A stretch of 9,206 nucleotides of DNA, from positions 1-9,206 of the forward strand of contig CAZYLT010000042.1 in assembly GCA_964648855.1 (NCBI GenBank), written 5' to 3'. Under the pieces are notes generated by a model, which had not been told where the DNA came from, searched no databases, and saw nothing but the letters and a program-made list of their open reading frames with translations. This stretch comes from an uncultured archaeon (GTDB lineage: Archaea > Asgardarchaeota > Thorarchaeia > Thorarchaeales > Thorarchaeaceae). Made by a program: the position numbers and the translations under genes. Shown in pieces: positions 307-9,206 of the stretch (position 1 is the first letter of the stretch; each line of letters opens with the position of its first letter).

Positions 307-1155
307 TTGGGCACACTAAGAACAATTGGATGGATATTTTTCTTAGTTAGTGGAACTGCTTTATCTGCGTTGCCCTTGATTCTGCTTATACTGCTTATTC
401 AGTGCAGCTGGACATCTTTAAGCGACATGGTCTACTTTGAATATCTTCTTTATGCCTTTAGCATCATCATACTGCAATTTGCGGTCTCGACAGCCTTTCT
501 GGGAACAGATTATGACCAACAAAAAGACACTAGAACTGCTATCAAGATATTCTGTCTGCTGCCGTTCTTTCTCCAAGTATTCATATTATTAAGTGGGCTT
601 TATTTCGGCCTGGATTCAGATTATGCCTTTATAGTAATCCTGAGCATCATTGTCTTTCATGCAATGCGACGCGCGCCTTCATTCCTAATACCCGTCATCC
701 CAAGAAACCCATCAAGCTTCAGAGACCCAGGCAATCAAATCAACAGGTCATGGCTCGGGAAAGCTCAGAAAGCACTGAATAAGAAAAATCTACACGGGTT
801 CTACATGAACCTCGGAAAGAGCATGGAGCAGGCTCTGAAGCATATAGAGGGTAGCAGGAGTAAGTTCTCACTGTGGACGCGAATATCTATGTGGAGAACG
901 CACTTTGGAGGAGGTTTGTTGAGTGATCTCAAAGCTGCAGAGAGATTCTTTCATGCGAAAAGGCTGAAGCTCACAAAATGGAGATTGAAGAGTCTGTGGG
1001 ATAGCGCACACCGGGCTCGCAAGGAACGCAATACGGCGAGTCACTCCAAGGTCAAACCTTTACAGAAGAATGGAACTGGTAATCTCCTCAACGATGTTAG
1101 ACAACTGGTCTTGGCATTAGAGAATTGGAGAGTTGACCAATATAGCAATCAATAG
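307..1155 (+). CDS. Membrane protein (~4 TM helices) with C-terminal HEPN-like domain, putative RNase
   Basis: TTG start preceded by GGGGTGG (296-302). The first ~120 aa hold four hydrophobic stretches. The C-terminal half has the HEPN-type helix WLGKAQKAL...FYMNLGKSMEQALK and an RxxxxH motif (RKE-RNTASH). Confidence 0.75.
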   Translation: MGTLRTIGWIFFLVSGTALSALPLILLILLIQCSWTSLSDMVYFEYLLYAFSIIILQFAVSTAFLGTDYDQQKDTRTAIKIFCLLPFFLQVFILLSGLYFGLDSDYAFIVILSIIVFHAMRRAPSFLIPVIPRNPSSFRDPGNQINRSWLGKAQKALNKKNLHGFYMNLGKSMEQALKHIEGSRSKFSLWTRISMWRTHFGGGLLSDLKAAERFFHAKRLKLTKWRLKSLWDSAHRARKERNTASHSKVKPLQKNGTGNLLNDVRQLVLALENWRVDQYSNQ

Positions 1156-1176: not shown

Positions 1177-2253
1177 TCAATCTGTTTTGAGTATGATACG
1201 CTTATCTTCAACAATAGCCATAACCCTTCCCAGTCGACTCTCTTCAGGACCCATTGCTTCCCAAGCACTAGCAAGGTATGCGTCAACATCACCTGATGAT
1301 ATCTTTATGCACGGTGAGTAGACAAGAAGTTCTTCAATCAGCCGACCTATATTGGATATCTTAAATCGAGATTTTTCAATTTTCTTCAGATTGCCACCAT
1401 ATGTGGGCTGTTGGACATAGAGAGTTTCCATGCCTTCATTCTGTGCGGACTGACGTTGGTGCTTGTCAGCGGTAAGAAAGATTATTCTCGTGTTAGTATT
1501 CTTCTGAAGAAAGCTCACTTCATACCGAATCAGGCTGTCAAAAACCGCATCGACGAACTTGGTTTCAGTCTGAATGCGTTCTGAATAATACAAATGTGCG
1601 GGCATACTAATGATGACGCGATGCTTCTCCTGTAGCCGCCTCATCTCCCGCAGCCCCTTGATTCCAATTCGTCCCTGGTGTGATGCAACTCGATAGATTG
1701 GATCTTGCGAGTCGAAGGTTGGTTCTTTGTAACTGCCAGTCATTAGCCGATAGTAGTTTTGGTCACGGTTGTGAATACCTTCTAGTCGGTCAACAAAGGC
1801 GGATTTACGAAAAGTGTTGCTCAGCTTGTAATGGAGCTCATGGTCCACTCCTGATGGTACTACAAGGAAGTGAGGTAGTCGCTTATACGGTTCTGGATGA
1901 TGGAGATTCATGTAATTGGGATAGAAGTGACTTATCACGAGATTGGTGTCTAGTGCCAATGCAACTGTTCGATTGCCCGGATTCTCCAAGGCGTCGTCAA
2001 TAACCTTCGAAAGCTCTTCATCGTTCTTCGAAGGAATCATGCCGGCACGCCAGACCATCTGCACGAGTTCTCTGGTTTCTAATTTGCGTTCGATTTCCAG
2101 AAGGCATTTACCAAAATCTATAGACAACCTAATGACATGTCCATTGTACTCGTTCCATCCTCTTACCTCCAGAATCTTGCTCTCAGAGTATAAACCATTG
2201 AGCAAGTCTGTCAATGTTTCAGGCTGCGGGCTCGATCTTTTTGACTTCGGCAT
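1177..2253 (-). CDS. PIN-domain protein (putative RNase) with N- and C-terminal extensions
   Basis: PIN motifs: ALALDTNL (first Asp), VVPSGVDHEL (Glu), FDSLI (Asp), FLTADK...AQNEG (last Asp). Start uncertain (GTG 2268, ATG 2262 or ATG 2253); it overlaps the upstream CARF gene, suggesting translational coupling. Confidence 0.8.
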   Translation of the reverse strand: MPKSKRSSPQPETLTDLLNGLYSESKILEVRGWNEYNGHVIRLSIDFGKCLLEIERKLETRELVQMVWRAGMIPSKNDEELSKVIDDALENPGNRTVALALDTNLVISHFYPNYMNLHHPEPYKRLPHFLVVPSGVDHELHYKLSNTFRKSAFVDRLEGIHNRDQNYYRLMTGSYKEPTFDSQDPIYRVASHQGRIGIKGLREMRRLQEKHRVIISMPAHLYYSERIQTETKFVDAVFDSLIRYEVSFLQKNTNTRIIFLTADKHQRQSAQNEGMETLYVQQPTYGGNLKKIEKSRFKISNIGRLIEELLVYSPCIKISSGDVDAYLASAWEAMGPEESRLGRVMAIVEDKRIILKTD

Positions 2254-2788
2254 CCAAATCATCCACACTGATTAGTATCGTTTCAGCATCATCCAACCCC
2301 AGTTCATAGGCCTTCTTTGCCAGCTTCTCTCTTGAGAAGTCATGAAGGAGATAATACGAGATGAAGACCTCACGACCGTATTTTTGATGCACAAGAAGCG
2401 AGGCAACCAAGGCACTGCCCGTCATCATCTTCCGTCCGGCCGTCGTGTCTACAACCACTTGGCATCCCTCGGGGCATCGCTCCAACAATGCCTTTGCTAT
2501 GATTTTTGTGGCTACTGGAAGGTCTGCCTCAGGAATCCAGATGATATCGTCTGTCCTGAATTCAATCTTCTCAAATGCTTTCGGAGCCATTCGCGATGAT
2601 ATTTGTTTGCTCAGGTCACATACTTGCTGGATGATGTTCTCTCCCTTTGCGGATGGCTCTCCGTCATCCCAGGAGGTTATGAAGTACACCTCATCGATTT
2701 CAGGATCATTTTCTGACCTGAGATACCAAGATAACGAGTTTGCACACGCCTGTGGCGTCACACCAACCGTCATGAAATATTTCGACAT
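2219..2788 (-). CDS. Stand-alone CARF-domain protein (Crn1/Csx14-like; cyclic oligoadenylate binding or ring nuclease), ~189 aa
   Basis: ATG at 2788 preceded by a strong SD (AGGAGGT), so shorter than the 2866 ORF call. CARF motif I YFMTVGVTP, second strand IDEVYFITS, and motif II VVDTTAGRKMM (DxTxGRKxM). No HTH or nuclease domain fused. Confidence 0.82.
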   Translation of the reverse strand: MSKYFMTVGVTPQACANSLSWYLRSENDPEIDEVYFITSWDDGEPSAKGENIIQQVCDLSKQISSRMAPKAFEKIEFRTDDIIWIPEADLPVATKIIAKALLERCPEGCQVVVDTTAGRKMMTGSALVASLLVHQKYGREVFISYYLLHDFSREKLAKKAYELGLDDAETILISVDDLDAEVKKIEPAA

Positions 2789-2876
2789 CCAGTTACCTCC
2801 TAAACCTACCTCCCTTGGTGTGAATGATTGTATTAAAGCATTCGGGAATTGCACCTTTGTGACCAATTCTCAAAAC

Positions 2877-3302: not shown

Positions 3303-3338
3303 ATTGCAGAAGTGAATCCCGAAGAAAGGGAATTAGAC
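3303..3338 (+). CRISPR. Single CRISPR-type repeat ATTGCAGAAGTGAATCCCGAAGAAAGGGAATTAGAC (orphan repeat or mini-array)
   Basis: 36 nt with a CCC-gaagaaa-GGG hairpin followed by an 8-nt tail, the layout of Cas6-processed repeats. 24 nt (3310-3333) match 9183-9206 exactly in reverse complement, next to cas1/cas2. Confidence 0.6.
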
Positions 3339-3495: not shown

Positions 3496-3555
3496 AGATT
3501 GACAGCAAAGTTATCGCATTCGTTTTCCTCTTGGAACTGGAAGTTGAATGATGTA

Positions 3556-3582
3556 GATGGAAAGTTTCAGGGTACTCTCTTA
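3556..3582 (+). repeat. 27-bp direct repeat, copy 1 (upstream of micro-ORF)
   Basis: GATGGAAAGTTTCAGGGTACTCTCTTA; 26/27 identical to 5178-5204. Confidence 0.85.
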
Positions 3583-3617
3583 ATAGTTCAATATTCCATA
3601 TTATTTACAATGGTAGG

Positions 3618-3761
3618 ATGACCAAAATGGGCGATGAAGACATAATCTATATCGATGAAGAAGGTAACATTATTGAATCGAACGTTGTGGAGTCCTCAAC
3701 GGACGAGGAAAAGGGACCTACGACTGCCATAAGGGACAACTTGGGGGAGTTCGCGTTATAA
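3618..3761 (+). CDS. Small acidic peptide (47 aa; 44 aa from ATG 3627), candidate modifier/substrate of the E1-E2-JAB module
   Basis: MTKMGDEDIIYIDEEGNIIESNVVESSTDEEKGPTTAIRDNLGEFAL*. It has 13 D/E, protein-like composition, GGTAGGATG upstream of ATG 3627, and lies just downstream of the 27-bp element. Too short for the ORF track. Confidence 0.6.
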   Translation: MTKMGDEDIIYIDEEGNIIESNVVESSTDEEKGPTTAIRDNLGEFAL

Positions 3762-3912
3762 TCTTGATTGCATGAATTCAACGTCTGCAGTCCAAAGTGG
3801 AGCGTAATTCTAGCGCAACATTCGTGCTGTAGAAATATTGGCGACCAATGCGATAGCTCCGGTCATCATTGGTTGCATTTGCTTCAAGGAAGCAGCTGTT
3901 GAGGGAAAACAA

Positions 3913-5124
3913 GTGCTCGACTATGGAACAACATACACGAATCACGCGAAGATTTCGGGATTTCTATTTTCATTTCTTGTAAGCTATGTTTTGAGGTCAT
4001 CACCTCTCATATTATCACATCTATTCAATGAGTCAACACTTATGCTCTATTTATTCCCGTTCTGGATCGGCATCGAACTATTCCTCATCTCTGTTTTTGC
4101 TGTCTATGGATGGACAGGAGTTGTCCTATCAATACTGATAGACGCAAATCTAAGGCCAACTCTGCAAATTGACCCTATTGTCTTTTTAGTGTCAGAAGCG
4201 ATCACGGTGACGATTATAGCAATTAGCCATGCAAATAGATGGTACAAGGGAATAACCCCTAGATGGAAATCCATGCTAGTGGCGGCAATAGCACCGTTCC
4301 CAGGAGTACCAGTAGTAAGCCTAATCTTTCTCAAGCTGTTGGAGGTTCAAGTCACTACAACTGAAATCTTCCATCTTGCCTTAATGTGGATTGATTCTCT
4401 AGTTTTCATATGCATAACTGCACCAATATCTCTTCACATCTTCCTGAAGCGGGGTGGCAGTAGAAGAAATTGGGCACCGATATGGCTCATTCATTTTATT
4501 GAGGGCCCAATCCGGCCCAGCAGAGGGGTAGCCAATCCTGTTGAACAGGCATACTCGTCTCGCGTCGAGAGAAACTCGGCTCAGAAATATCGTATTTGGT
4601 GGGATTTTGAAAATGTATCCATGCCACCGAATGAAATACGTGATTTCATAAATAAGATACAGGGAGAAATGATTCCGGGGATGGTTTTTGCTGATTGGAA
4701 TCGCTTCTCCGACGGAATGTTGAAGGCGCTGTATCGGGCCATGGTGACTCCAGTTCATGTGCCGGATGACAGAGAAGATGCTGCTGACAAAGTAATGAAA
4801 TCGAAGATGGCACAGGTGAGGCATGAAGGAAATATTACCGAAGTAGTTGTGACAGGTGATCAAGGATTCTATGGGATTGTTCGCGATTGGGTTGAGGCTG
4901 GAGTGAGGGTATGGATTGTGACTCAAAACCAATGCTACAGCAGAAGCTTGGCACAAGTTGCTACTCTCCATTCAGAGATCTCAACATTTCCCAGATGTTC
5001 TTCAATTGGAGAAGCGGGTTATCAGTCTTCGATTGAAGATAATGTACGAATAATCTGTGACGCGTGCAATCATGATAATAACATTGGGAATCAAGTTTGT
5101 GAACGATGTAATACCAGGTTCTAG
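3913..5124 (+). CDS. Multi-pass membrane protein (MASE1-like) fused to a NYN (LabA/DUF88) RNase domain and a C-terminal zinc ribbon
   Basis: N-terminal ~5-6 hydrophobic helices with MASE1-like patterns (FPFWIGI...YGW; MWIDSL...TAP). NYN motifs IWWDFENV, FADW, EDAADK, VVVTGDQGF...GVRVWIV. C-terminal CDAC...CERC. Start is either GTG 3913 (GAGGG at 3901-3905) or TTG 3838. Confidence 0.8.
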   Translation: MLDYGTTYTNHAKISGFLFSFLVSYVLRSSPLILSHLFNESTLMLYLFPFWIGIELFLISVFAVYGWTGVVLSILIDANLRPTLQIDPIVFLVSEAITVTIIAISHANRWYKGITPRWKSMLVAAIAPFPGVPVVSLIFLKLLEVQVTTTEIFHLALMWIDSLVFICITAPISLHIFLKRGGSRRNWAPIWLIHFIEGPIRPSRGVANPVEQAYSSRVERNSAQKYRIWWDFENVSMPPNEIRDFINKIQGEMIPGMVFADWNRFSDGMLKALYRAMVTPVHVPDDREDAADKVMKSKMAQVRHEGNITEVVVTGDQGFYGIVRDWVEAGVRVWIVTQNQCYSRSLAQVATLHSEISTFPRCSSIGEAGYQSSIEDNVRIICDACNHDNNIGNQVCERCNTRF

Positions 5125-5177
5125 AATTATCGTGGTGTATGGGATTGTTCCAAGATAGTATCAATTTATGCAGATTG

Positions 5178-5204
5178 GATGGAAAGTTTCAGGGTGCTCT
5201 CTTA
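5178..5204 (+). repeat. 27-bp direct repeat, copy 2 (upstream of E2-E1-JAB operon)
   Basis: GATGGAAAGTTTCAGGGTGCTCTCTTA; 26/27 identical to 3556-3582. Confidence 0.85.
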
Positions 5205-5271
5205 TTTGTAAAGGGGTATACTGAGTATTGTAGGAACATGGAGGAGAAGAGCATGACAAAGGTGAAACACT

Positions 5272-5712
5272 TTGACTAAATCAGATTATCACCTGGCTGT
5301 GAATAAAGGGCTACTAATTACTGGTCGGGATCTCAATAGGACTCGATGGCGAGTGGAGTCAGAACGGCTCAGGCTATACTGTCCCGGCTGGAAACTGGAA
5401 TTAAGAAGACAGAATGGCGAAAAGACCATGACAAAAACGATGGGCTCGGTGAAGTGTGGTAGGAAGGCGTTCGACTTGATTATTAAGATTCCAAACCACT
5501 ATCCATACAAGATTCCCACAGTATTTACTCACAGATGGAGCACAGGAGACTCGCCTCATGTATACAACAATGGAGCACTCTGTGTTATGAAATCAGACCA
5601 GTGGAGGTCTATCTACTCACTTGCTTTAGTTGTCAAGAAGGCGACTGTCTGGATCCATAAATACCTCTCTTGGAAGAAGAAGAGTAGATGGCCAGGCAGG
5701 GCACAGGACTAG
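5272..5712 (+). CDS. Prokaryotic E2/UBC-like ubiquitin-conjugating enzyme
   Basis: UBC-fold signature IKIPNHYPYKIP, PHVYNNGALC (catalytic Cys), downstream W, and a W..KY..W....WPG tail typical of prokaryotic E2s. TTG start with GGTGA at 5261-5265. Confidence 0.8.
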   Translation: MTKSDYHLAVNKGLLITGRDLNRTRWRVESERLRLYCPGWKLELRRQNGEKTMTKTMGSVKCGRKAFDLIIKIPNHYPYKIPTVFTHRWSTGDSPHVYNNGALCVMKSDQWRSIYSLALVVKKATVWIHKYLSWKKKSRWPGRAQD

Positions 5713-5723
5713 GGGGAACCACG

Positions 5724-6551
5724 ATGGATTACAAGAGAATAGAATACATTCTTACGCCGGAGGAATTGGAATCAAAGGAAGTTCTCGTTGTCGGTCTTGG
5801 CAGCGGAGGAGCACCAGTTGTACAACATATGGGAATGAATGGTGTTCGGAATTGGCTGCTGTACGACCCAGATCGACTCGATGTGGTCAATCTTGTGAAG
5901 CACCCAGCCATGAGAAGTGAATTGGGCGAACTAAAAGTCAATATCATGGAGAAGTGGTTGCTAGATAGAAATCCCGAATCCAGAGTAAAGAGTTGTCCTG
6001 AGGATGTAATGCAGTCACCTGCTTTTGAGGAGGATGTAAAGGCTGCAGACATAGTAATATCAGCCTCCGATAGCATGCAAGTTCGGCAATATGTGAATCG
6101 GATTTGTGTTGATAACTCGACCATGTGTGTCACTGCAAACGTTTTCAGAACCGGGTTTGGTGGGGAGGTATTTAGCTACATTCCAGGTAAGACTGGCTGT
6201 TTTCAGTGTCTTCTCTTTATTAGCCAGAAGCAGGGATGGCATGCATTAGATTCATCAATAGACCTGTTGCCTGAAGAAGAAGAACATATTTACGGACTTG
6301 ATGAACGGGAATTCAAAGCGTCAGGTTTATCGATGGACATCGCGATTATATCATCCATTGCAGCAAAAAGGGCCCTTCGTCTGATTCTGCGGAACCCCAA
6401 CCCAAAGTTCTATCCCGAAGACCGTTCGAATTATATCATATTCTACATGAGAAGCATCTCTGGGTATCAAGCATTCTCAAGCGATAGATACTTCATTTCT
6501 CCACAGGCTCAATGCTTTTGCGCCCACCTAGAAGAAGGTGAGCCAGATTGA
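5724..6551 (+). CDS. ThiF/MoeB-family E1-like adenylyltransferase
   Basis: VLVVGLGSGG nucleotide-binding loop, DPDRLDVVNLVKH, GELKV, ASDS, GCFQC and a C-terminal CFC. ATG 5724 follows GGGGGA, 11 nt after the E2 stop. Confidence 0.92.
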   Translation: MDYKRIEYILTPEELESKEVLVVGLGSGGAPVVQHMGMNGVRNWLLYDPDRLDVVNLVKHPAMRSELGELKVNIMEKWLLDRNPESRVKSCPEDVMQSPAFEEDVKAADIVISASDSMQVRQYVNRICVDNSTMCVTANVFRTGFGGEVFSYIPGKTGCFQCLLFISQKQGWHALDSSIDLLPEEEEHIYGLDEREFKASGLSMDIAIISSIAAKRALRLILRNPNPKFYPEDRSNYIIFYMRSISGYQAFSSDRYFISPQAQCFCAHLEEGEPD

Positions 6552-6596
6552 TTCGAAAGCGTAATTTCCGGTTCACGGAAGGATTGGAGGACGGGG

Positions 6597-7607
6597 GTGT
6601 ATAAGCTGCAGCACAAATCACCATTCATGACCTTAAACAGAAGACAAATGAGGATTGTAGTGGGGCTAGACCAAGTCAAAGTTAGCGACCGAATCCTGAG
6701 AAAGGCAATCGAACGAGCCCGATACAACAGAACAGTCGAAGTAGGTGGAATATTAATCGGCTTTATCGATGAAAGATCTTCTAGATTCGATTCCTATGGA
6801 ACACTCCGAGTCATAAACGAGATTCCCAGTGGCCCGAGAGCAGAACGAACTGCCACAAGTCTACATGGGGATTTAGAGTATCAAGAAAAGCAATTCGAGC
6901 GAGTTTTTCAGAGAGATAGAAGGGTGCACCATTTAGGAAGCTGGCACAGTCACGTAGCTAACGGAATGCAACATCTGAGCAATGGAGATTTGCAATCCTA
7001 TCAGAATATGGTCTGCTCTGAAAGGCATAGACATTCTTACTACTTTGCTTTGTTGCTTCTGCGGCTCCCAGTCTTCGGCATTTGTGACCATTCGGTTTTC
7101 AATTATTTCCGGTTTTATCTAATCCATCGTGACTTTCATACAATATGCTTTGAATTGGGCAGGGACTGCATTACCATAGAAGAACAACCAGAAGATTACT
7201 CGAATCTGATTCAGGATTATGAAGTATTTCAGCAACAAAGAATCACAGTCTTGAACAAGGAGCCAGCAGGCTGGGTTAATTCTAGCACTGGAAGGAAGTT
7301 TCTGAAAAACGATTCAAAGATTATGGATTCGTTGACAGAAACTATACCAATCCTTGAACAGGGCCCAATTCTTCTGAGAAGGGGAAGCACCTCCGGCCGT
7401 ATAGTCAGGACATTCTTTCTAGGAAGCCACAGGATTGAATATCAATATCCCGAAGAAACGCTAAATGGACGCATAACGATTGAAGTATTCATGAGTGGGG
7501 ATAGAACCGACTATGAGCGAGTTCTTAGAGTAAAGCTGAGTCCTGTTCCCTTACGATTTAAGATCTTTAGGATCATAATTCAGACCCTATCAGAAATGAA
7601 CGAGTAA
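6597..7607 (+). CDS. JAB/MPN+ (JAMM) metalloprotease with an uncharacterised C-terminal extension
   Basis: EVGGILIG, GPRAER, GSWHSH...LSNGD (E-x-HxH-x-SxxD). GTG start with GGAGG at 6586-6590. Confidence 0.9.
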   Translation: MYKLQHKSPFMTLNRRQMRIVVGLDQVKVSDRILRKAIERARYNRTVEVGGILIGFIDERSSRFDSYGTLRVINEIPSGPRAERTATSLHGDLEYQEKQFERVFQRDRRVHHLGSWHSHVANGMQHLSNGDLQSYQNMVCSERHRHSYYFALLLLRLPVFGICDHSVFNYFRFYLIHRDFHTICFELGRDCITIEEQPEDYSNLIQDYEVFQQQRITVLNKEPAGWVNSSTGRKFLKNDSKIMDSLTETIPILEQGPILLRRGSTSGRIVRTFFLGSHRIEYQYPEETLNGRITIEVFMSGDRTDYERVLRVKLSPVPLRFKIFRIIIQTLSEMNE

Positions 7608-7748: not shown

Positions 7749-8777
7749 ATGAGTTCAACGAAGAGTACAATTATCCTTACAGAGTTTGGCTCTTCCCTAA
7801 GAAAGCAGGGAAAAAGGTTTGTGATTAGCGGAGAGGATGGAGAGAAGAAAAAGATTGCCACCTGCAAGGTAGACAAGATAATGTTGCCTTTGCGAGGCTC
7901 AAGTGTATCAACCGATGCCCTTCTTCTTGCAATGACCGACTCTATTCCAGTATTATTGATACAAAGAAACGGAGCGCCAGTTGGATTTTTGAACAACCTT
8001 CTGAAGAAGGGAAATGTTGACCTACGAAGAAAACAGTATAATTTAAGTAAAAAGGACCGAGCAGTTGTGTTGGCCAAGTCATTCGTGCTGGGAAAGGTAC
8101 AGAATCAAATAGGGCTGCTAAAGCGAAAGGCTGCCAATAGAAAGAAATCCAAACCAGCCCTCACGAAAGAGCTTTTGCAAAACACAGAAAAAATGCAATC
8201 CATACTGGATGGATTAAGTGAACATGCAAGTCATGGAACTGAAGTGATGGATCGACTGTTTGGGATCGAAGGCAGCATTGCGGCACGATATTGGCAGTCC
8301 ATCCGGAGAATACTGCCCGATTATCTTTTATTCAAAGGACGCACAGGTCGCGATGCAAATGACCTAGTTAATTGCATGCTGAATTATGGCTATGCCATTT
8401 TGCAGAGTGAAATATTGATAGGTATCCTGGCAACCGGACTTGACCCATCTGTTGGAATCCTTCATTCTGACAAAAAGGGTAGAAATTCTTGCGTTCTTGA
8501 TTTGATGGAGGAGTTTAGACCTATTGTTGATAGTGCGATACTGAAAATTATTGTAACGAGTAATGAAAATCTCAGTCAACATATCGATGGTGGGCGGTTG
8601 AGTAGAGAAATGAGAAGGATGATTGCAGGTGCCATTACAAACAGGCTCTCTACTGAGACTCGATATGGGACAAACTCAAGGAAAATCAAGGCTATCATAT
8701 CAAAACAGGCACAGAAGCTTGCGGAATGCATTGGGCATGAAGAGAAAGAATACTCACCTTTCGTGGTTAGGTGGTGA
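7749..8777 (+). CDS. cas1: CRISPR-associated endonuclease Cas1
   Basis: SVSTDAL, LFGIEGSIAARYW, NCMLNYGYAIL, GLDPSVGILH, LDLMEEFRP; catalytic E/H/acidic residues are present. Confidence 0.97.
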   Translation: MSSTKSTIILTEFGSSLRKQGKRFVISGEDGEKKKIATCKVDKIMLPLRGSSVSTDALLLAMTDSIPVLLIQRNGAPVGFLNNLLKKGNVDLRRKQYNLSKKDRAVVLAKSFVLGKVQNQIGLLKRKAANRKKSKPALTKELLQNTEKMQSILDGLSEHASHGTEVMDRLFGIEGSIAARYWQSIRRILPDYLLFKGRTGRDANDLVNCMLNYGYAILQSEILIGILATGLDPSVGILHSDKKGRNSCVLDLMEEFRPIVDSAILKIIVTSNENLSQHIDGGRLSREMRRMIAGAITNRLSTETRYGTNSRKIKAIISKQAQKLAECIGHEEKEYSPFVVRW

Positions 8778-9073
8778 ACCAGATCCACCACATTGCCATC
8801 TATGACATCTCGAAGGATTCTCTCAGGAATCGAGTCGCAAACAAGCTGCTTGACTATGGCATGCAGAGAATACAGTTTAGTGCATTCATGGGTATTTTGT
8901 CATTATCCCAGAGGGAGCAGCTTACAAGAGAATTGAAGGAGATTTGCAACAACGCAAATGATAACGATTCGGTTTTTATTGTGCCCATCTGTGAGGTTTG
9001 CCTTGGCAAGTCTACCATCTTGGGATCTATTGACTTACAAAGCCTTGAACTCCCTCCTGTGATCATGGTATGA
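8771..9073 (+). CDS. cas2: CRISPR-associated endoribonuclease Cas2
   Basis: IAIYDIS...RNRVANKLLDYG MQRIQFSAFMG...DSV...PICEVC. Overlaps the cas1 stop (GTG at 8771 or 8774). Confidence 0.96.
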   Translation: MVNQIHHIAIYDISKDSLRNRVANKLLDYGMQRIQFSAFMGILSLSQREQLTRELKEICNNANDNDSVFIVPICEVCLGKSTILGSIDLQSLELPPVIMV

Positions 9074-9182: not shown

Positions 9183-9206
9183 ATTCCCTTTCTTCGGGAT
9201 TCACTT
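9183..9206 (-). CRISPR. Partial CRISPR-type repeat, probably the degenerate terminal repeat of an array continuing beyond the window
   Basis: Minus strand reads AAGTGAATCCCGAAGAAAGGGAAT, identical to 3310-3333, then diverges (ATCC vs TAGAC). It lies 110 nt after cas2 and is truncated by the window end. Confidence 0.55.

What the first reader, a model, noticed from the sequence alone, without database searches (positions are those of the whole stretch)
3556..7607. Candidate new ubiquitin-like conjugation system: micro-peptide + membrane NYN RNase + E2 + E1 + JAB, embedded in a CRISPR-cas locus
Seen: co-oriented micro-ORF, TM-NYN-Zn-ribbon, E2, E1 and JAB genes directly upstream of cas1-cas2, with no CD-NTase and no beta-grasp Ubl gene in the window. 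Known: E1/E2/JAB trios act in type II CBASS (Cap2/Cap3 conjugate and release the CD-NTase C-terminus) and in Bil-type systems (Ubl conjugated to phage proteins). Inference: this is a different architecture in which a short disordered peptide is the modifier and a membrane-bound RNase is the effector or target, possibly coupled to CRISPR immunity.
Basis: partly seen in the sequence, partly recalled or inferred. Interest (0 to 1): 0.9.

Follow-up and report, generated by a model that had tools for sequence, protein, structure and literature searches.

The report
Peptide-tag E1-E2-JAB conjugation module
A tiny, unannotated 44-47-residue gene in this archaeal contig belongs to a widespread, unnamed family that almost always sits in front of a particular set of ubiquitin-type enzymes (E2, E1, JAB protease) in bacteria and Asgard archaea, and it is probably a fold-less peptide that these enzymes activate and attach like ubiquitin.

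Summary
The window is a whole 9.2-kb contig of an archaeal, Thorarchaeota-like MAG. It carries, co-oriented, a micro-ORF, a TM-NYN-Zn-finger protein, E2, E1, JAB with an extra domain, cas1 and cas2. There is no CD-NTase or beta-grasp gene.

The micro-ORF is a real gene family:
- A profile built from bacterial copies alone finds it as the only hit among 71,146 ORFs of the genome (E 8e-5).
- In 46 of 47 non-redundant loci with a related E1 (several bacterial phyla and Asgard archaea), a small ORF ending GE[YF] lies just upstream of E2.
- Asgard relatives encode it as a 3x tandem precursor. Seven loci fuse it to E2.
- A complex model puts its tail in the E1 adenylation site (score 0.83, best control 0.02).

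Peptide-E2-E1-JAB is therefore a conserved, unnamed module related to Cap2/Cap3 and 6A-MBL. Its modifier is probably a fold-less peptide.

The NYN domain is specific to this window. The recurrent Asgard partners are the TM-Zn-finger protein (4 loci) and a CARF protein (3 loci). The cas1-cas2 adjacency is not conserved.

I found no paper describing this. The scan had noted analogous peptide-plus-E1/E2 modules of other families on other DNA.

The parts
3618..3761 (+). Micro-ORF, the candidate peptide modifier. 47 aa, or 44 aa from the ATG at 3627. It has an N-terminal hairpin motif (IIYIDEEGNII) and a C-terminal tail AIRDNLGEF followed by the two extra residues AL.
   Evidence: It is homologous to small ORFs directly upstream of E2 in 46 of 47 related loci. 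It is the only genome-wide hit of a bacterial-only HMM. 251 clusters of hypothetical 23-109-aa proteins match the family, none with a Pfam family. No Pfam or NCBIfam hit.
3838..5124 (+). Membrane protein with about 5-6 TM segments (residues ~35-205), an inserted NYN RNase domain (253-375) and a C-terminal RanBP2-type zinc finger (407-424).
   Evidence: Pfam NYN E 1e-6, above cut-off. Hydrophobic stretches and the CX2CX3NX6CX2C pattern. TM plus Zn-finger homologues without NYN flank the module in L006, L010 and L098.
5272..5712 (+). Stand-alone E2 (UBC fold), 146 aa, with a catalytic-type Cys104 and His96.
   Evidence: UQ_con 1e-5, Prok-E2_B 9e-4 and many PADLOC E2 models. Relatives carry PF26395 E2-CBASS. 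H96 and C104 are invariant in A7. Best solved relative by sequence is UBE2W.
5688..6551 (+). ThiF/MoeB/MccB-type E1 adenylating enzyme with a single adenylation domain. Probable start 5724, giving 275 aa.
   Evidence: Pfam ThiF 1.2e-32. The family alignment has an invariant GxGSGG loop, D128 and CxxC...CxC. PDB sequence hits: ThiF 83 bits, MccB 82, MoeB 77, UBA5 67. 142 homologues at 40-64% identity.
6597..7607 (+). JAB/MPN metalloprotease (residues ~10-215) followed by a C-terminal alpha+beta domain (224-336) that is conserved in the family.
   Evidence: Pfam JAB 1.9e-5 and PADLOC JAB 5.5e-11. E48, H117, H119, S128 and D131 are invariant. Model pLDDT 80.7. Z 16.1 to the Caldiarchaeum Rpn11 homologue, 15.2 to Cap3, 13.3 to BilC. 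The C-terminal domain has only generic matches.
3555..3585 (+). Operator-like direct repeat, copy 1 (core GGAAAGTTTCAGGGT), about 35-40 nt upstream of the micro-ORF.
   Evidence: The two copies at 3559-3579 and 5181-5201 are the only ones in the genome. Related GAAA(G/C)TTTC motifs lie upstream of the peptide gene in L006 and L098.
5177..5207 (+). Operator-like direct repeat, copy 2, about 65 nt upstream of the E2 start.
2219..2866 (-). Stand-alone CARF protein (215 aa), divergent from the module.
   Evidence: PADLOC CARF_PIN/Csx1 models, 5e-7. DTTAGRK motif. Model pLDDT 68, with top fold matches to CARF proteins (Sso2081, Csm6, Csa3, Cam1, Can2). Homologues lie next to the module in L006 (39% id) and L099 (57% id).
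1177..2268 (-). PIN-domain protein whose start overlaps the end of the CARF gene.
   Evidence: Pfam PIN_4 4.8e-4 (20.9 bits, just under the 21.9-bit cut-off) and PADLOC CARF_PIN 0.0036. The same overlapping CARF-PIN pair occurs in L099.
7749..9073 (+). cas1 (7749-8777) and cas2 (8771-9073). This is an adaptation module 141 nt downstream of JAB.
   Evidence: Pfam Cas_Cas1 1.3e-66 and CRISPR_Cas2 5.9e-17. The adjacency was not seen in any other locus of the family.
9183..9206 (-). First CRISPR repeat, at the end of the contig.
   Evidence: The same 24-mer occurs 11 times at the start of contig C9 and twice at the start of C1.
3310..3333 (+). Orphan, inverted copy of the CRISPR repeat in the 750-nt gap between CARF and the micro-ORF.
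   Evidence: Exact match.

Best explanation
The window encodes the Asgard-archaeal form of a widespread, so far unnamed four-gene conjugation module: small peptide, E2, E1 and JAB.

Proposed mechanism:
1. The peptide has a short beta-hairpin and a conserved tail ending Gly-Glu-Phe/Tyr. It is made with a short C-terminal extension (AL here), as a 3x tandem precursor, or fused to E2.
2. The JAB protease trims it to expose the aromatic C-terminus.
3. The ThiF-type E1 binds the hairpin against its C-terminal strand and adenylates the C-terminal carboxylate.
4. The peptide is passed to the E2 cysteine and then to an amine on a target. JAB can also reverse the conjugate.

The core is combined with lineage-specific cargo:
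- a small MBL hydrolase in most bacteria;
- CD-NTase plus patatin in some bacteria;
- a multi-TM Zn-finger protein in Asgard archaea (here with an inserted NYN RNase domain), often with a CARF protein.

The context is a defence island, so an immune role is likely. The cas1-cas2 adjacency is probably incidental.

What is shown: gene content, family conservation, synteny, repeats, fusions and intact catalytic motifs. What is inferred: adenylation, thioester transfer, conjugation, the targets, and the roles of NYN and CARF.
For: (1) Conservation and synteny.
- A peptide HMM finds a same-strand small ORF just upstream of E2 in 46 of 47 non-redundant loci with a related E1 and enough upstream sequence.
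- The last three residues are GEY in 36, GDY in 5 and GEF in 4.
- 26 end exactly at the motif, 13 have 1-25 extra residues and 7 are fused to E2.
- Titled hosts include Desulfobacterales, Cyanobacteria, Gemmatimonadetes, Acidobacteriaceae, Dehalococcoidia, Planctomycetota, Verrucomicrobiae and actinomycetes, plus Thorarchaeota.

(2) Ubiquitin-like gene forms.
- 3x tandem precursors occur in L006 and L098, each unit ending AIRDNLGEF.
- Repeat-E2 and single-peptide-E2 fusions occur: P0246, P0248, P0335 and L056-L075.
- These parallel polyubiquitin and the BubAB Ubl-E2 fusion (PMC11601596).

(3) Complex model of E1 with the peptide.
- Score 0.83; best of 3 controls 0.02. This mark was reached by 58 of 80 solved complexes and 2 of 110 mismatched pairs. 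The counts hold only roughly, because my own alignments were used.
- The runs agree in at least 87% of contacts. The partner's pLDDT is at least 59.
- Peptide residues 36-47 touch E1 residues 36, 38-41 (GxGSGG loop) and 126-130 (D128). Hairpin residues 7-16 pair with E1 266-274.
- E1-Ubl and MccB-peptide complexes have been solved, so part of this pass may come from likeness to them.

(4) The enzymes look active.
- E2 has invariant His96 and Cys104.
- E1 has the invariant nucleotide loop, D128 and the zinc cysteines.
- JAB has the complete JAMM motif and an MPN fold close to Rpn11, Cap3 and BilC.

(5) The cargo varies while the peptide does not. MBL lies upstream in 23 loci, SMODS in 3 and LuxR in 2, and Asgard loci carry TM-Zn-finger and CARF proteins. 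The C-termini of the MBL and CD-NTase neighbours do not carry the GEY tail.

(6) Defence-island setting. The window has CARF, PIN, cas1 and cas2. The array continues on C9 next to cas6, a Csa3-like CARF, and Mokosh- and Lamassu-like genes. AbiEii lies beside a bacterial copy. The distribution is patchy: 2 of 61 related genomes.
Against: - There is no biochemical evidence for adenylation, a thioester or a conjugate.
- A C-terminal aromatic residue is unlike every characterised Ubl, which end in Gly. Its fit in an E1 pocket is untested.
- The E1 alignment has no invariant cysteine outside the zinc site, so an E1 thioester step is doubtful.
- By sequence the E1 is as close to MccB, which makes a peptide antibiotic, as to ThiF.
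- The peptide is only moderately confident in the complex model (pLDDT 59-63).
- An analogous peptide-tag claim made earlier in this scan on another family was later priced low (e1-2382593).
- Roles for NYN and CARF rest on 3-4 related Asgard loci.
Confidence: 0.6

Rival explanations
1. The peptide is not a tag. It is a regulator or pseudo-substrate of the E1/E2: a decoy, brake or chaperone. The moiety actually conjugated is the C-terminus of the cargo protein (MBL, CD-NTase, or here the NYN membrane protein), as in type II CBASS and MBL pathways.
For: - The E1 and JAB give weak hits to the 6A-MBL cap2_3 model, and the E2 of relatives is Pfam E2-CBASS.
- MBL or SMODS genes sit immediately upstream in 26 loci.
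- Published work says Cap2-type enzymes conjugate their signalling enzyme (PMC11601596).
Against: - The cargo differs or has no recognisable equivalent between loci, while the peptide is near-universal.
- Cargo C-termini are not conserved and lack the GEY tail.
- Tandem precursors and E2 fusions make sense for a consumable substrate.
- Canonical 6A-MBL loci lack the peptide, so it is not needed for cargo conjugation there.
Confidence: 0.17
2. The locus makes a modified peptide product, RiPP-like or microcin-C-like. The E1 adenylates or otherwise modifies the conserved C-terminal residue of a ribosomal peptide. JAB is the maturation protease, and no protein conjugation occurs.
For: - MccB, which adenylates the C-terminus of the MccA heptapeptide, is among the best solved sequence relatives of the E1 (82 bits against 83 for ThiF).
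- The substrate is a short ribosomal peptide with a strictly conserved C-terminus.
- The tandem repeats resemble multi-core precursors.
Against: - A UBC-fold E2 with invariant Cys and His is always present and is sometimes fused to the peptide.
- No exporter or immunity gene is conserved in the loci.
- The neighbours are defence genes.
- The ~45-aa unit is conserved over its whole length, not only in a short core.
Confidence: 0.08
3. In Asgard archaea the module is an accessory of cyclic-oligoadenylate (type III CRISPR-like) signalling. The CARF protein senses cOA and controls the conjugation machinery or the membrane NYN/Zn-finger effector, so the cas adjacency is functional.
For: - CARF homologues (39-57% id) flank the module in 3 Asgard loci, in three different arrangements. 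Twice they come with the same overlapping PIN gene.
- cas1-cas2 and a CRISPR repeat follow the module here, and Cas6 lies 7 kb from it in L006.
Against: - No Cas10 (two TIGRFAM models) was found in the 94.6%-complete genome.
- The cas1-cas2 adjacency is unique to this contig.
- L010 and L098 show no CARF in the sequence available, and the bacterial loci have none.
- The three loci are related by descent and lie in defence islands.
Confidence: 0.15

Closest known systems
Type II CBASS Cap2 (E2-E1 fusion) / Cap3 (JAB)
   Same: - It uses a minimal E1 adenylation domain, a UBC-type E2 and a JAB peptidase. Relatives' E2 is Pfam E2-CBASS.
- The JAB model matches Cap3 at Z 15.2.
- Some bacterial members of this family sit next to a SMODS cyclase and a patatin.
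- The substrate's flexible C-terminal tail enters the E1 site.
   Different: - E2 and E1 are separate genes.
- JAB carries an extra C-terminal domain.
- There is no CD-NTase in the window or the genome.
- A dedicated ~45-aa peptide gene is present in 46 of 47 loci, and its tail ends in Tyr or Phe.
6A-MBL anti-phage system (Iyer 2006 type 6a; NCBIfam NF058523 cap2_3 plus MBL)
   Same: - E2, E1 and JAB domains occur in the same order.
- An MBL hydrolase lies immediately upstream in 23 bacterial loci of this family.
- E1 and JAB give weak hits to NF058523.
   Different: - The three domains are three genes, not one fusion.
- Scores are 51 and 34 bits against a cut-off of 320.
- The MBL is ~245 aa rather than ~400 aa.
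- Canonical 6A-MBL loci (L109-L111) have no peptide ORF.
- The window has no MBL.
Bil (type I/II BilABCD) and Bub (BubAB/BubCD/BubE) bacterial ubiquitination-like systems
   Same: - A free modifier gene sits beside E2, JAB and E1.
- JAB is predicted to pre-process extensions.
- Modifier-E2 fusions occur, as in BubAB.
- Tandem modifier units occur.
- The E1 has no invariant catalytic cysteine but has an invariant Tyr in the post-CxxC segment, reminiscent of Bub (PMC10557695, PMC11601596).
   Different: - The modifier is ~45 aa and cannot form a beta-grasp. It ends in GE[YF], not Gly.
- The E1 is a single 275-aa adenylation domain, whereas BilD has IAD, AAD and CYS domains.
- The gene order is peptide-E2-E1-JAB.
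- There is no DUF6527 protein.
- The E2 keeps a cysteine, whereas Bub uses a serine.
Pup-PafA pupylation (actinobacteria)
   Same: A small, intrinsically unfolded peptide serves as a covalent protein tag. Its C-terminal residues are processed before ligation (general knowledge).
   Different: The enzymology is entirely different. PafA and Dop are glutamine-synthetase-like and ligate through a Glu side chain. Here the machinery is of the E1/E2/JAB type.
MccA-MccB (microcin C7 biosynthesis)
   Same: An E1/ThiF-type enzyme recognises a short ribosomal peptide and adenylates its C-terminal residue. MccB is a top solved sequence relative of this E1.
   Different: MccB has an N-terminal peptide-clamp domain and no E2 or JAB partners. 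Its product is a secreted antibiotic. Here a UBC E2 and a JAB are always present and there is no exporter.

Membership tests
Type II CBASS | CD-NTase (SMODS) cyclase gene in the operon | tested here: not met
   No SMODS hit on any main ORF of the window, and none in the whole 94.6%-complete genome. Three bacterial relatives do have one.
Type II CBASS | Cap2: E2 and E1 fused in one protein | tested here: not met
   E2 (5272-5712) and E1 (5688/5724-6551) are separate ORFs here and in the related loci.
Type II CBASS | Cap3-like JAB peptidase | tested here: met
   JAMM motif intact. Model matches Cap3 (9ild) at Z 15.2, rmsd 2.4 over 143 residues.
6A-MBL | cap2_3 triple E2-E1-JAB fusion reaching the NF058523 cut-off | tested here: not met
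   E1 scores 51.1 bits and JAB 33.8 bits against a cut-off of 320. They are separate genes.
6A-MBL | Adjacent metallo-beta-lactamase gene | tested here: not met
   No Lactamase_B hit in the window. One is present upstream of the peptide in 23 bacterial relatives.
Bil (BilABCD) | Beta-grasp Ubl (BilA) ending in a conserved Gly | tested here: not met
   The only conserved small gene is a 44-60-aa peptide ending GE[YF]. No ubiquitin-family Pfam hit.
Bil (BilABCD) | Multidomain E1 (inactive plus active adenylation domains and a CYS domain) | tested here: not met
   The E1 is 275-287 aa with one ThiF domain. No invariant Cys outside the CxxC...CxC zinc site.
Bub | DUF6527 (BubE) protein, and an E2 with catalytic Ser | tested here: not met
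   No DUF6527 hit on the window ORFs. The E2 has an invariant Cys104.
E1/E2/JAB ubiquitin-like conjugation systems (general kind) | E1 adenylation motifs, an E2 catalytic Cys/His and a JAMM metalloprotease motif, all intact and in one operon | tested here: met
E1/E2/JAB ubiquitin-like conjugation systems (general kind) | Covalent transfer of the modifier to targets | not testable with these tools
   There is only a complex model: score 0.83, best control 0.02. Biochemistry is needed.
CARF effectors of type III CRISPR signalling (for 2219-2866) | CARF fold with the ligand-loop motif | tested here: met
   PADLOC CARF models at 5e-7. DTTAGRK motif. Top Foldseek matches are CARF proteins, though the model's pLDDT is only 68.
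CARF effectors of type III CRISPR signalling (for 2219-2866) | A Cas10 cyclase in the same genome to make the ligand | tested here: inconclusive
   TIGR02577 and TIGR02578 found nothing in the genome, which is 94.6% complete and in 62 contigs.

The most novel reading that the evidence does not exclude
A fold-less peptide of about 45 residues, ending in an aromatic residue, is a genuine ubiquitin-like covalent tag. It is activated by a minimal E1, carried on a UBC E2 and trimmed or removed by a JAB protease. The module is shared by many bacterial phyla and Asgard archaea. In Asgard archaea it is made as a polyubiquitin-like 3x precursor and is wired to a membrane Zn-finger/NYN protein and a CARF sensor. 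That would make it a missing form between self-conjugating Cap2-type systems and free-Ubl systems.
Probability: 0.45. Interest if true: 0.9.

Novelty: new variant of a known kind. Interest (0 to 1): 0.8.

Why it matters
All characterised E1/E2 conjugation systems use one of two substrates: a beta-grasp Ubl ending in Gly (ubiquitin, SAMP, Bil, Bub) or the tail of a whole enzyme (CBASS, Pycsar, MBL). A universal, separately encoded 45-aa peptide with an aromatic C-terminus would be a third solution.

- It would show that E1/E2 chemistry does not need the ubiquitin fold.
- It would explain what the split MBL-type E2-E1-JAB operons act on.
- It would add an unannotated gene to hundreds of loci.
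- Its presence in Asgard archaea as a tandem precursor bears on how polyubiquitin-style precursors and free modifiers arose.
- The system is small and directly testable: four genes, with cultured actinomycete hosts available.

Tried and rejected
- The word-index search with the JAB protein returned only itself. It was not found in 40 related genomes.
- The first metagenome scan, with the single E1, confirmed no relative. The alignment-based scan then worked.
- The peptide has no Pfam, NCBIfam or PADLOC family.
- Long repetitive proteins among the hits of the peptide profile match only the hairpin part. I set them aside as look-alikes of a YD/RHS-type hairpin.
- Canonical 6A-MBL loci (L109-L111, only 1.5 kb of flank) show no peptide hit.
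- A PDB sequence search with the CARF alignment found nothing meaningful. The fold search did.
- The C-terminal domain of JAB matched only generic alpha+beta folds (Med17 Z 9.6, frataxin/CyaY Z 8.3). I assign no fold. My first guess of an RWD/UEV-like domain is not supported.
- The Cas10 and SMODS family searches of the genome were empty.
- Literature searches found no description of this peptide or of a peptide-E2-E1-JAB module: on JAB/ThiF/anti-phage, Bil/Bub/CBASS, Cap2/Cap3 with small protein, 6A-MBL, the motifs RDPEGEY and RDNLGEF, and short peptide with adenylation. The final version of Ledvina et al. 2023 is not in the searchable library.
- No RNA holder was listed among the sequencing runs. 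The DNA is held by microbial-mat metagenome runs that may be its source. I did not lay reads.
- I dropped the idea that the 46-aa ORF at 5139-5279 is a second peptide gene. It has no similarity to the family.

Full report
WHAT IS IN THE WINDOW.

The window is the whole of contig C42 of a 3.1-Mb MAG in 62 contigs, 94.6% complete. The MAG has an archaeal SSU rRNA. The closest relatives of the E1 are annotated Candidatus Thorarchaeota. I therefore treat the host as an Asgard archaeon; this is an inference. The DNA is held by microbial-mat metagenome runs.

Genes on the + strand:
- Micro-ORF 3618-3761.
- A 428-aa membrane protein at 3838-5124. It has Pfam NYN above the gathering score and a C-terminal CX2CX3NX6CX2C zinc finger.
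- An E2 at 5272-5712.
- A ThiF-type E1 at 5688-6551, probably starting at 5724.
- A 336-aa JAB protein at 6597-7607.
- cas1 and cas2.
- The first repeat of a CRISPR array, at the contig end.

On the minus strand upstream lie a stand-alone CARF gene (2219-2866) and an overlapping PIN gene (1177-2268). No CD-NTase was found in the window or the genome.

THE MICRO-ORF IS A GENE FAMILY.

The E1 has more than 140 homologues at 40-64% identity. Their contigs show a constant E2 (Pfam E2-CBASS), E1, and a ~310-390-aa third gene.

The micro-ORF recurs in the Thorarchaeota loci:
- In L010 a 43-aa ORF homologous to the window's micro-ORF lies directly upstream of E2.
- In L006 the corresponding gene encodes three tandem copies of the same unit, each ending AIRDNLGEF. 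L098 does the same.
- In L008 three units are fused to the N-terminus of E2.

An HMM of the archaeal copies then found small ORFs at the same position in bacterial loci from many phyla.

With 57 further metagenomic loci the count is as follows. Of 47 non-redundant loci with a strong E1 match and at least 700 nt upstream, 46 have the peptide on the same strand upstream of E1.
- The last three residues are GEY in 36, GDY in 5 and GEF in 4.
- 26 stop right after that residue, 13 carry 1-25 extra residues and 7 are fused to E2.

In reverse, an HMM built from 14 bacterial peptides only has a single hit among all 71,146 six-frame ORFs of this genome: the window's micro-ORF (E 8.1e-5).

The family comprises at least 251 clusters of 23-109-aa hypothetical proteins without any Pfam family. 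A profile search of 1.84 billion representatives returned 213 hits at E up to 0.001. They are a mix of small proteins, a few E2 fusions, and long repetitive proteins that match only the hairpin and that I regard as spurious.

ENZYMES.

- E2: the family alignment has an invariant His96 and Cys104 in a PH.Y..G.LC motif, and the UBC YPY..P motif.
- E1: the GxGSGG loop, D128 and CxxC...CxC are invariant. No other cysteine is invariant. An invariant Tyr202 lies in the segment after the first CxxC. By position, and from my own knowledge, this segment corresponds to the crossover loop of MoeB/ThiF. The published Bub E1 uses a crossover-loop tyrosine (PMC11601596). This parallel is an inference only.
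- JAB: E48, H117, H119, S128 and D131 are invariant. The AlphaFold model (pLDDT 80.7) has an MPN domain that matches the Caldiarchaeum Rpn11 homologue (Z 16.1), Cap3 bound to a CD-NTase (Z 15.2) and BilC (Z 13.3). Its family-conserved C-terminal alpha+beta domain (224-336) has only generic matches.
- By sequence, the nearest solved E1 relatives are ThiF, MccB, MoeB and UBA5. The nearest E2 relative is UBE2W.

DOES THE PEPTIDE BIND E1?

A complex prediction of E1 (19-row alignment) with the peptide (19-row alignment) gave a score of 0.83, against 0.02 for the best of three controls.
- That mark was reached by 58 of 80 solved complexes and 2 of 110 mismatched pairs in the tool's calibration. The counts hold only roughly with my own alignments.
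- The runs share at least 87% of contacts, and the partner's pLDDT is at least 59.
- The interface puts the peptide tail (residues 36-47) against the nucleotide loop (36, 38-41) and the D128 region (126-130). It puts the hairpin (7-16) against the last E1 strand (266-274).
- E1-Ubl and MccB-MccA complexes are solved, so likeness may contribute to the pass.

The result supports binding but does not show it.

WHAT TRAVELS WITH THE CORE.

- The commonest bacterial form is MBL (~245 aa, also hitting the Apyc1 family), then the peptide, E2, E1 and JAB. This is seen in 23 loci.
- Three loci have a SMODS cyclase, one of them with a patatin.
- Cyanobacterial loci have a LuxR-type gene.
- The C-termini of the MBL and cyclase neighbours do not resemble the GEY tail.

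NCBIfam places the E1 and JAB weakly near 6A-MBL cap2_3 (51 and 34 bits, cut-off 320). Three canonical 6A-MBL loci have no peptide. So the peptide marks this split clade rather than all Cap2-like systems.

In Asgard loci the partners differ.
- A multi-TM protein ending in a Zn finger (cluster c5) occurs in the window, L006, L010 and L098. Only the window's copy contains the NYN domain.
- A CARF protein (c6) occurs in the window, L006 and L099 at 39-57% identity, in three different arrangements. In L099 it has the same overlapping PIN gene. Its model (pLDDT 68) matches mainly CARF proteins.
- The cas1-cas2 adjacency is not seen elsewhere.

The genome's array continues on contig C9 beside cas6, a Csa3-like CARF, and Mokosh- and Lamassu-like genes. 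No Cas10 was found. The E1 family is present in only 2 of 61 related genomes.

INTERPRETATION.

The simplest reading is a ubiquitin-like conjugation module whose modifier is the peptide.
1. JAB exposes the aromatic C-terminus. It would remove AL here, cut between tandem units, and cut the E2 fusions.
2. E1 adenylates that C-terminus.
3. The E2 cysteine carries the peptide.
4. A target amine receives it, and JAB reverses the conjugate.

I give this 0.6.

Rivals:
- The peptide regulates an enzyme that really conjugates the cargo's C-terminus (0.17).
- The locus is an MccB-like peptide-product pathway (0.08).

The proposed CARF/cOA coupling is a separate question about the Asgard partners. It does not compete with these three, and I give it 0.15.

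The NYN protein may be an effector or a target. Only its membrane and Zn-finger parts recur, so the RNase activity is a local addition.

LITERATURE.

- Iyer et al. 2006 (PMC1779556) list five E1/E2/JAB operon types, 6a-6e. None has separate E2, E1 and JAB genes with a small non-beta-grasp peptide.
- Later work names type II CBASS, Pycsar, MBL, Bil I/II and Bub I/II (PMC10557695, PMC11601603, PMC11601596).
- 6A-MBL is cited as anti-phage (PMC13276650).
- I found no paper on this peptide. The library is incomplete.

EARLIER NOTES OF THIS SCAN.

The scan's earlier notes describe analogous peptide partners of Cap2-like or JAB-E1 enzymes in other genomes, from different families. One of them was later priced low. 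None matches this peptide by sequence. They are leads, not support.

Noticed in passing
window 3555-3585 and 5177-5207; L006:7040-7090; L098:830-1000: A near-perfect ~27-nt direct repeat with core GGAAAGTTTC precedes both the micro-ORF and E2, and occurs nowhere else in the genome. Similar half-palindromic GAAA(G/C)TTTC motifs lie upstream of the peptide gene in two diverged Thorarchaeota loci. This suggests a shared operator for an unknown regulator.
   Followed up: partly
window 3310-3333 and 9183-9206; G000 C9:32-795; C1:207-303: An orphan copy of the genome's CRISPR repeat lies inverted in the 750-nt gap upstream of the micro-ORF. The true array starts at the contig end and continues on C9 (11 repeats, then cas6, a Csa3-like CARF, and Mokosh-like, PLD and LmuB-like genes) or on C1.
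   Followed up: partly
window 1177-2866 (-); L099:3394-4174: A stand-alone CARF gene whose end overlaps the start of a PIN gene, as if a CARF-PIN effector had been split. The same overlapping pair, at 57% and 48% identity, lies downstream of E2-E1-JAB and a radical SAM gene in L099.
   Followed up: partly
window 307-1155 (+): A 282-aa ORF with N-terminal hydrophobic segments and a basic C-terminal half. It has no hit in Pfam, PADLOC or NCBIfam. Another first-stage note calls it a membrane HEPN; I did not test this.
   Followed up: no
L027:5416-5616, L033:5407-5619, L036:5323-5610: Bacteroidales loci with a more distant E1 (30% identity, inside a 411-aa protein) also have a 67-96-aa ORF directly upstream. 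It has a VELVxxxDGEL hairpin-like motif and a tail ending KKDYY plus 2-3 residues. A JAB-like 315-aa gene and a 140-aa gene precede it. This may be an analogous tag in a second clade.
   Followed up: partly
L008:721-6984: One metagenomic contig carries two E2-E1-JAB modules in tandem, separated by a transglutaminase-like gene. Only the first has the peptide, as three units fused to E2.
   Followed up: no
L129:5664-6413; L130:5702-6451: The small MBL partner of the bacterial modules also hits the Pfam family of the phage anti-Pycsar nuclease Apyc1. This hints at cyclic-nucleotide phosphodiesterase chemistry.
   Followed up: no
window E1 residues 171-210 (alignment A2): The E1 family has no invariant cysteine outside its zinc site, but it has an invariant Glu197 and Tyr202-Gly203 in the segment after the first CxxC. 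This recalls the tyrosine oxyester mechanism reported for the Bub E1.
   Followed up: no
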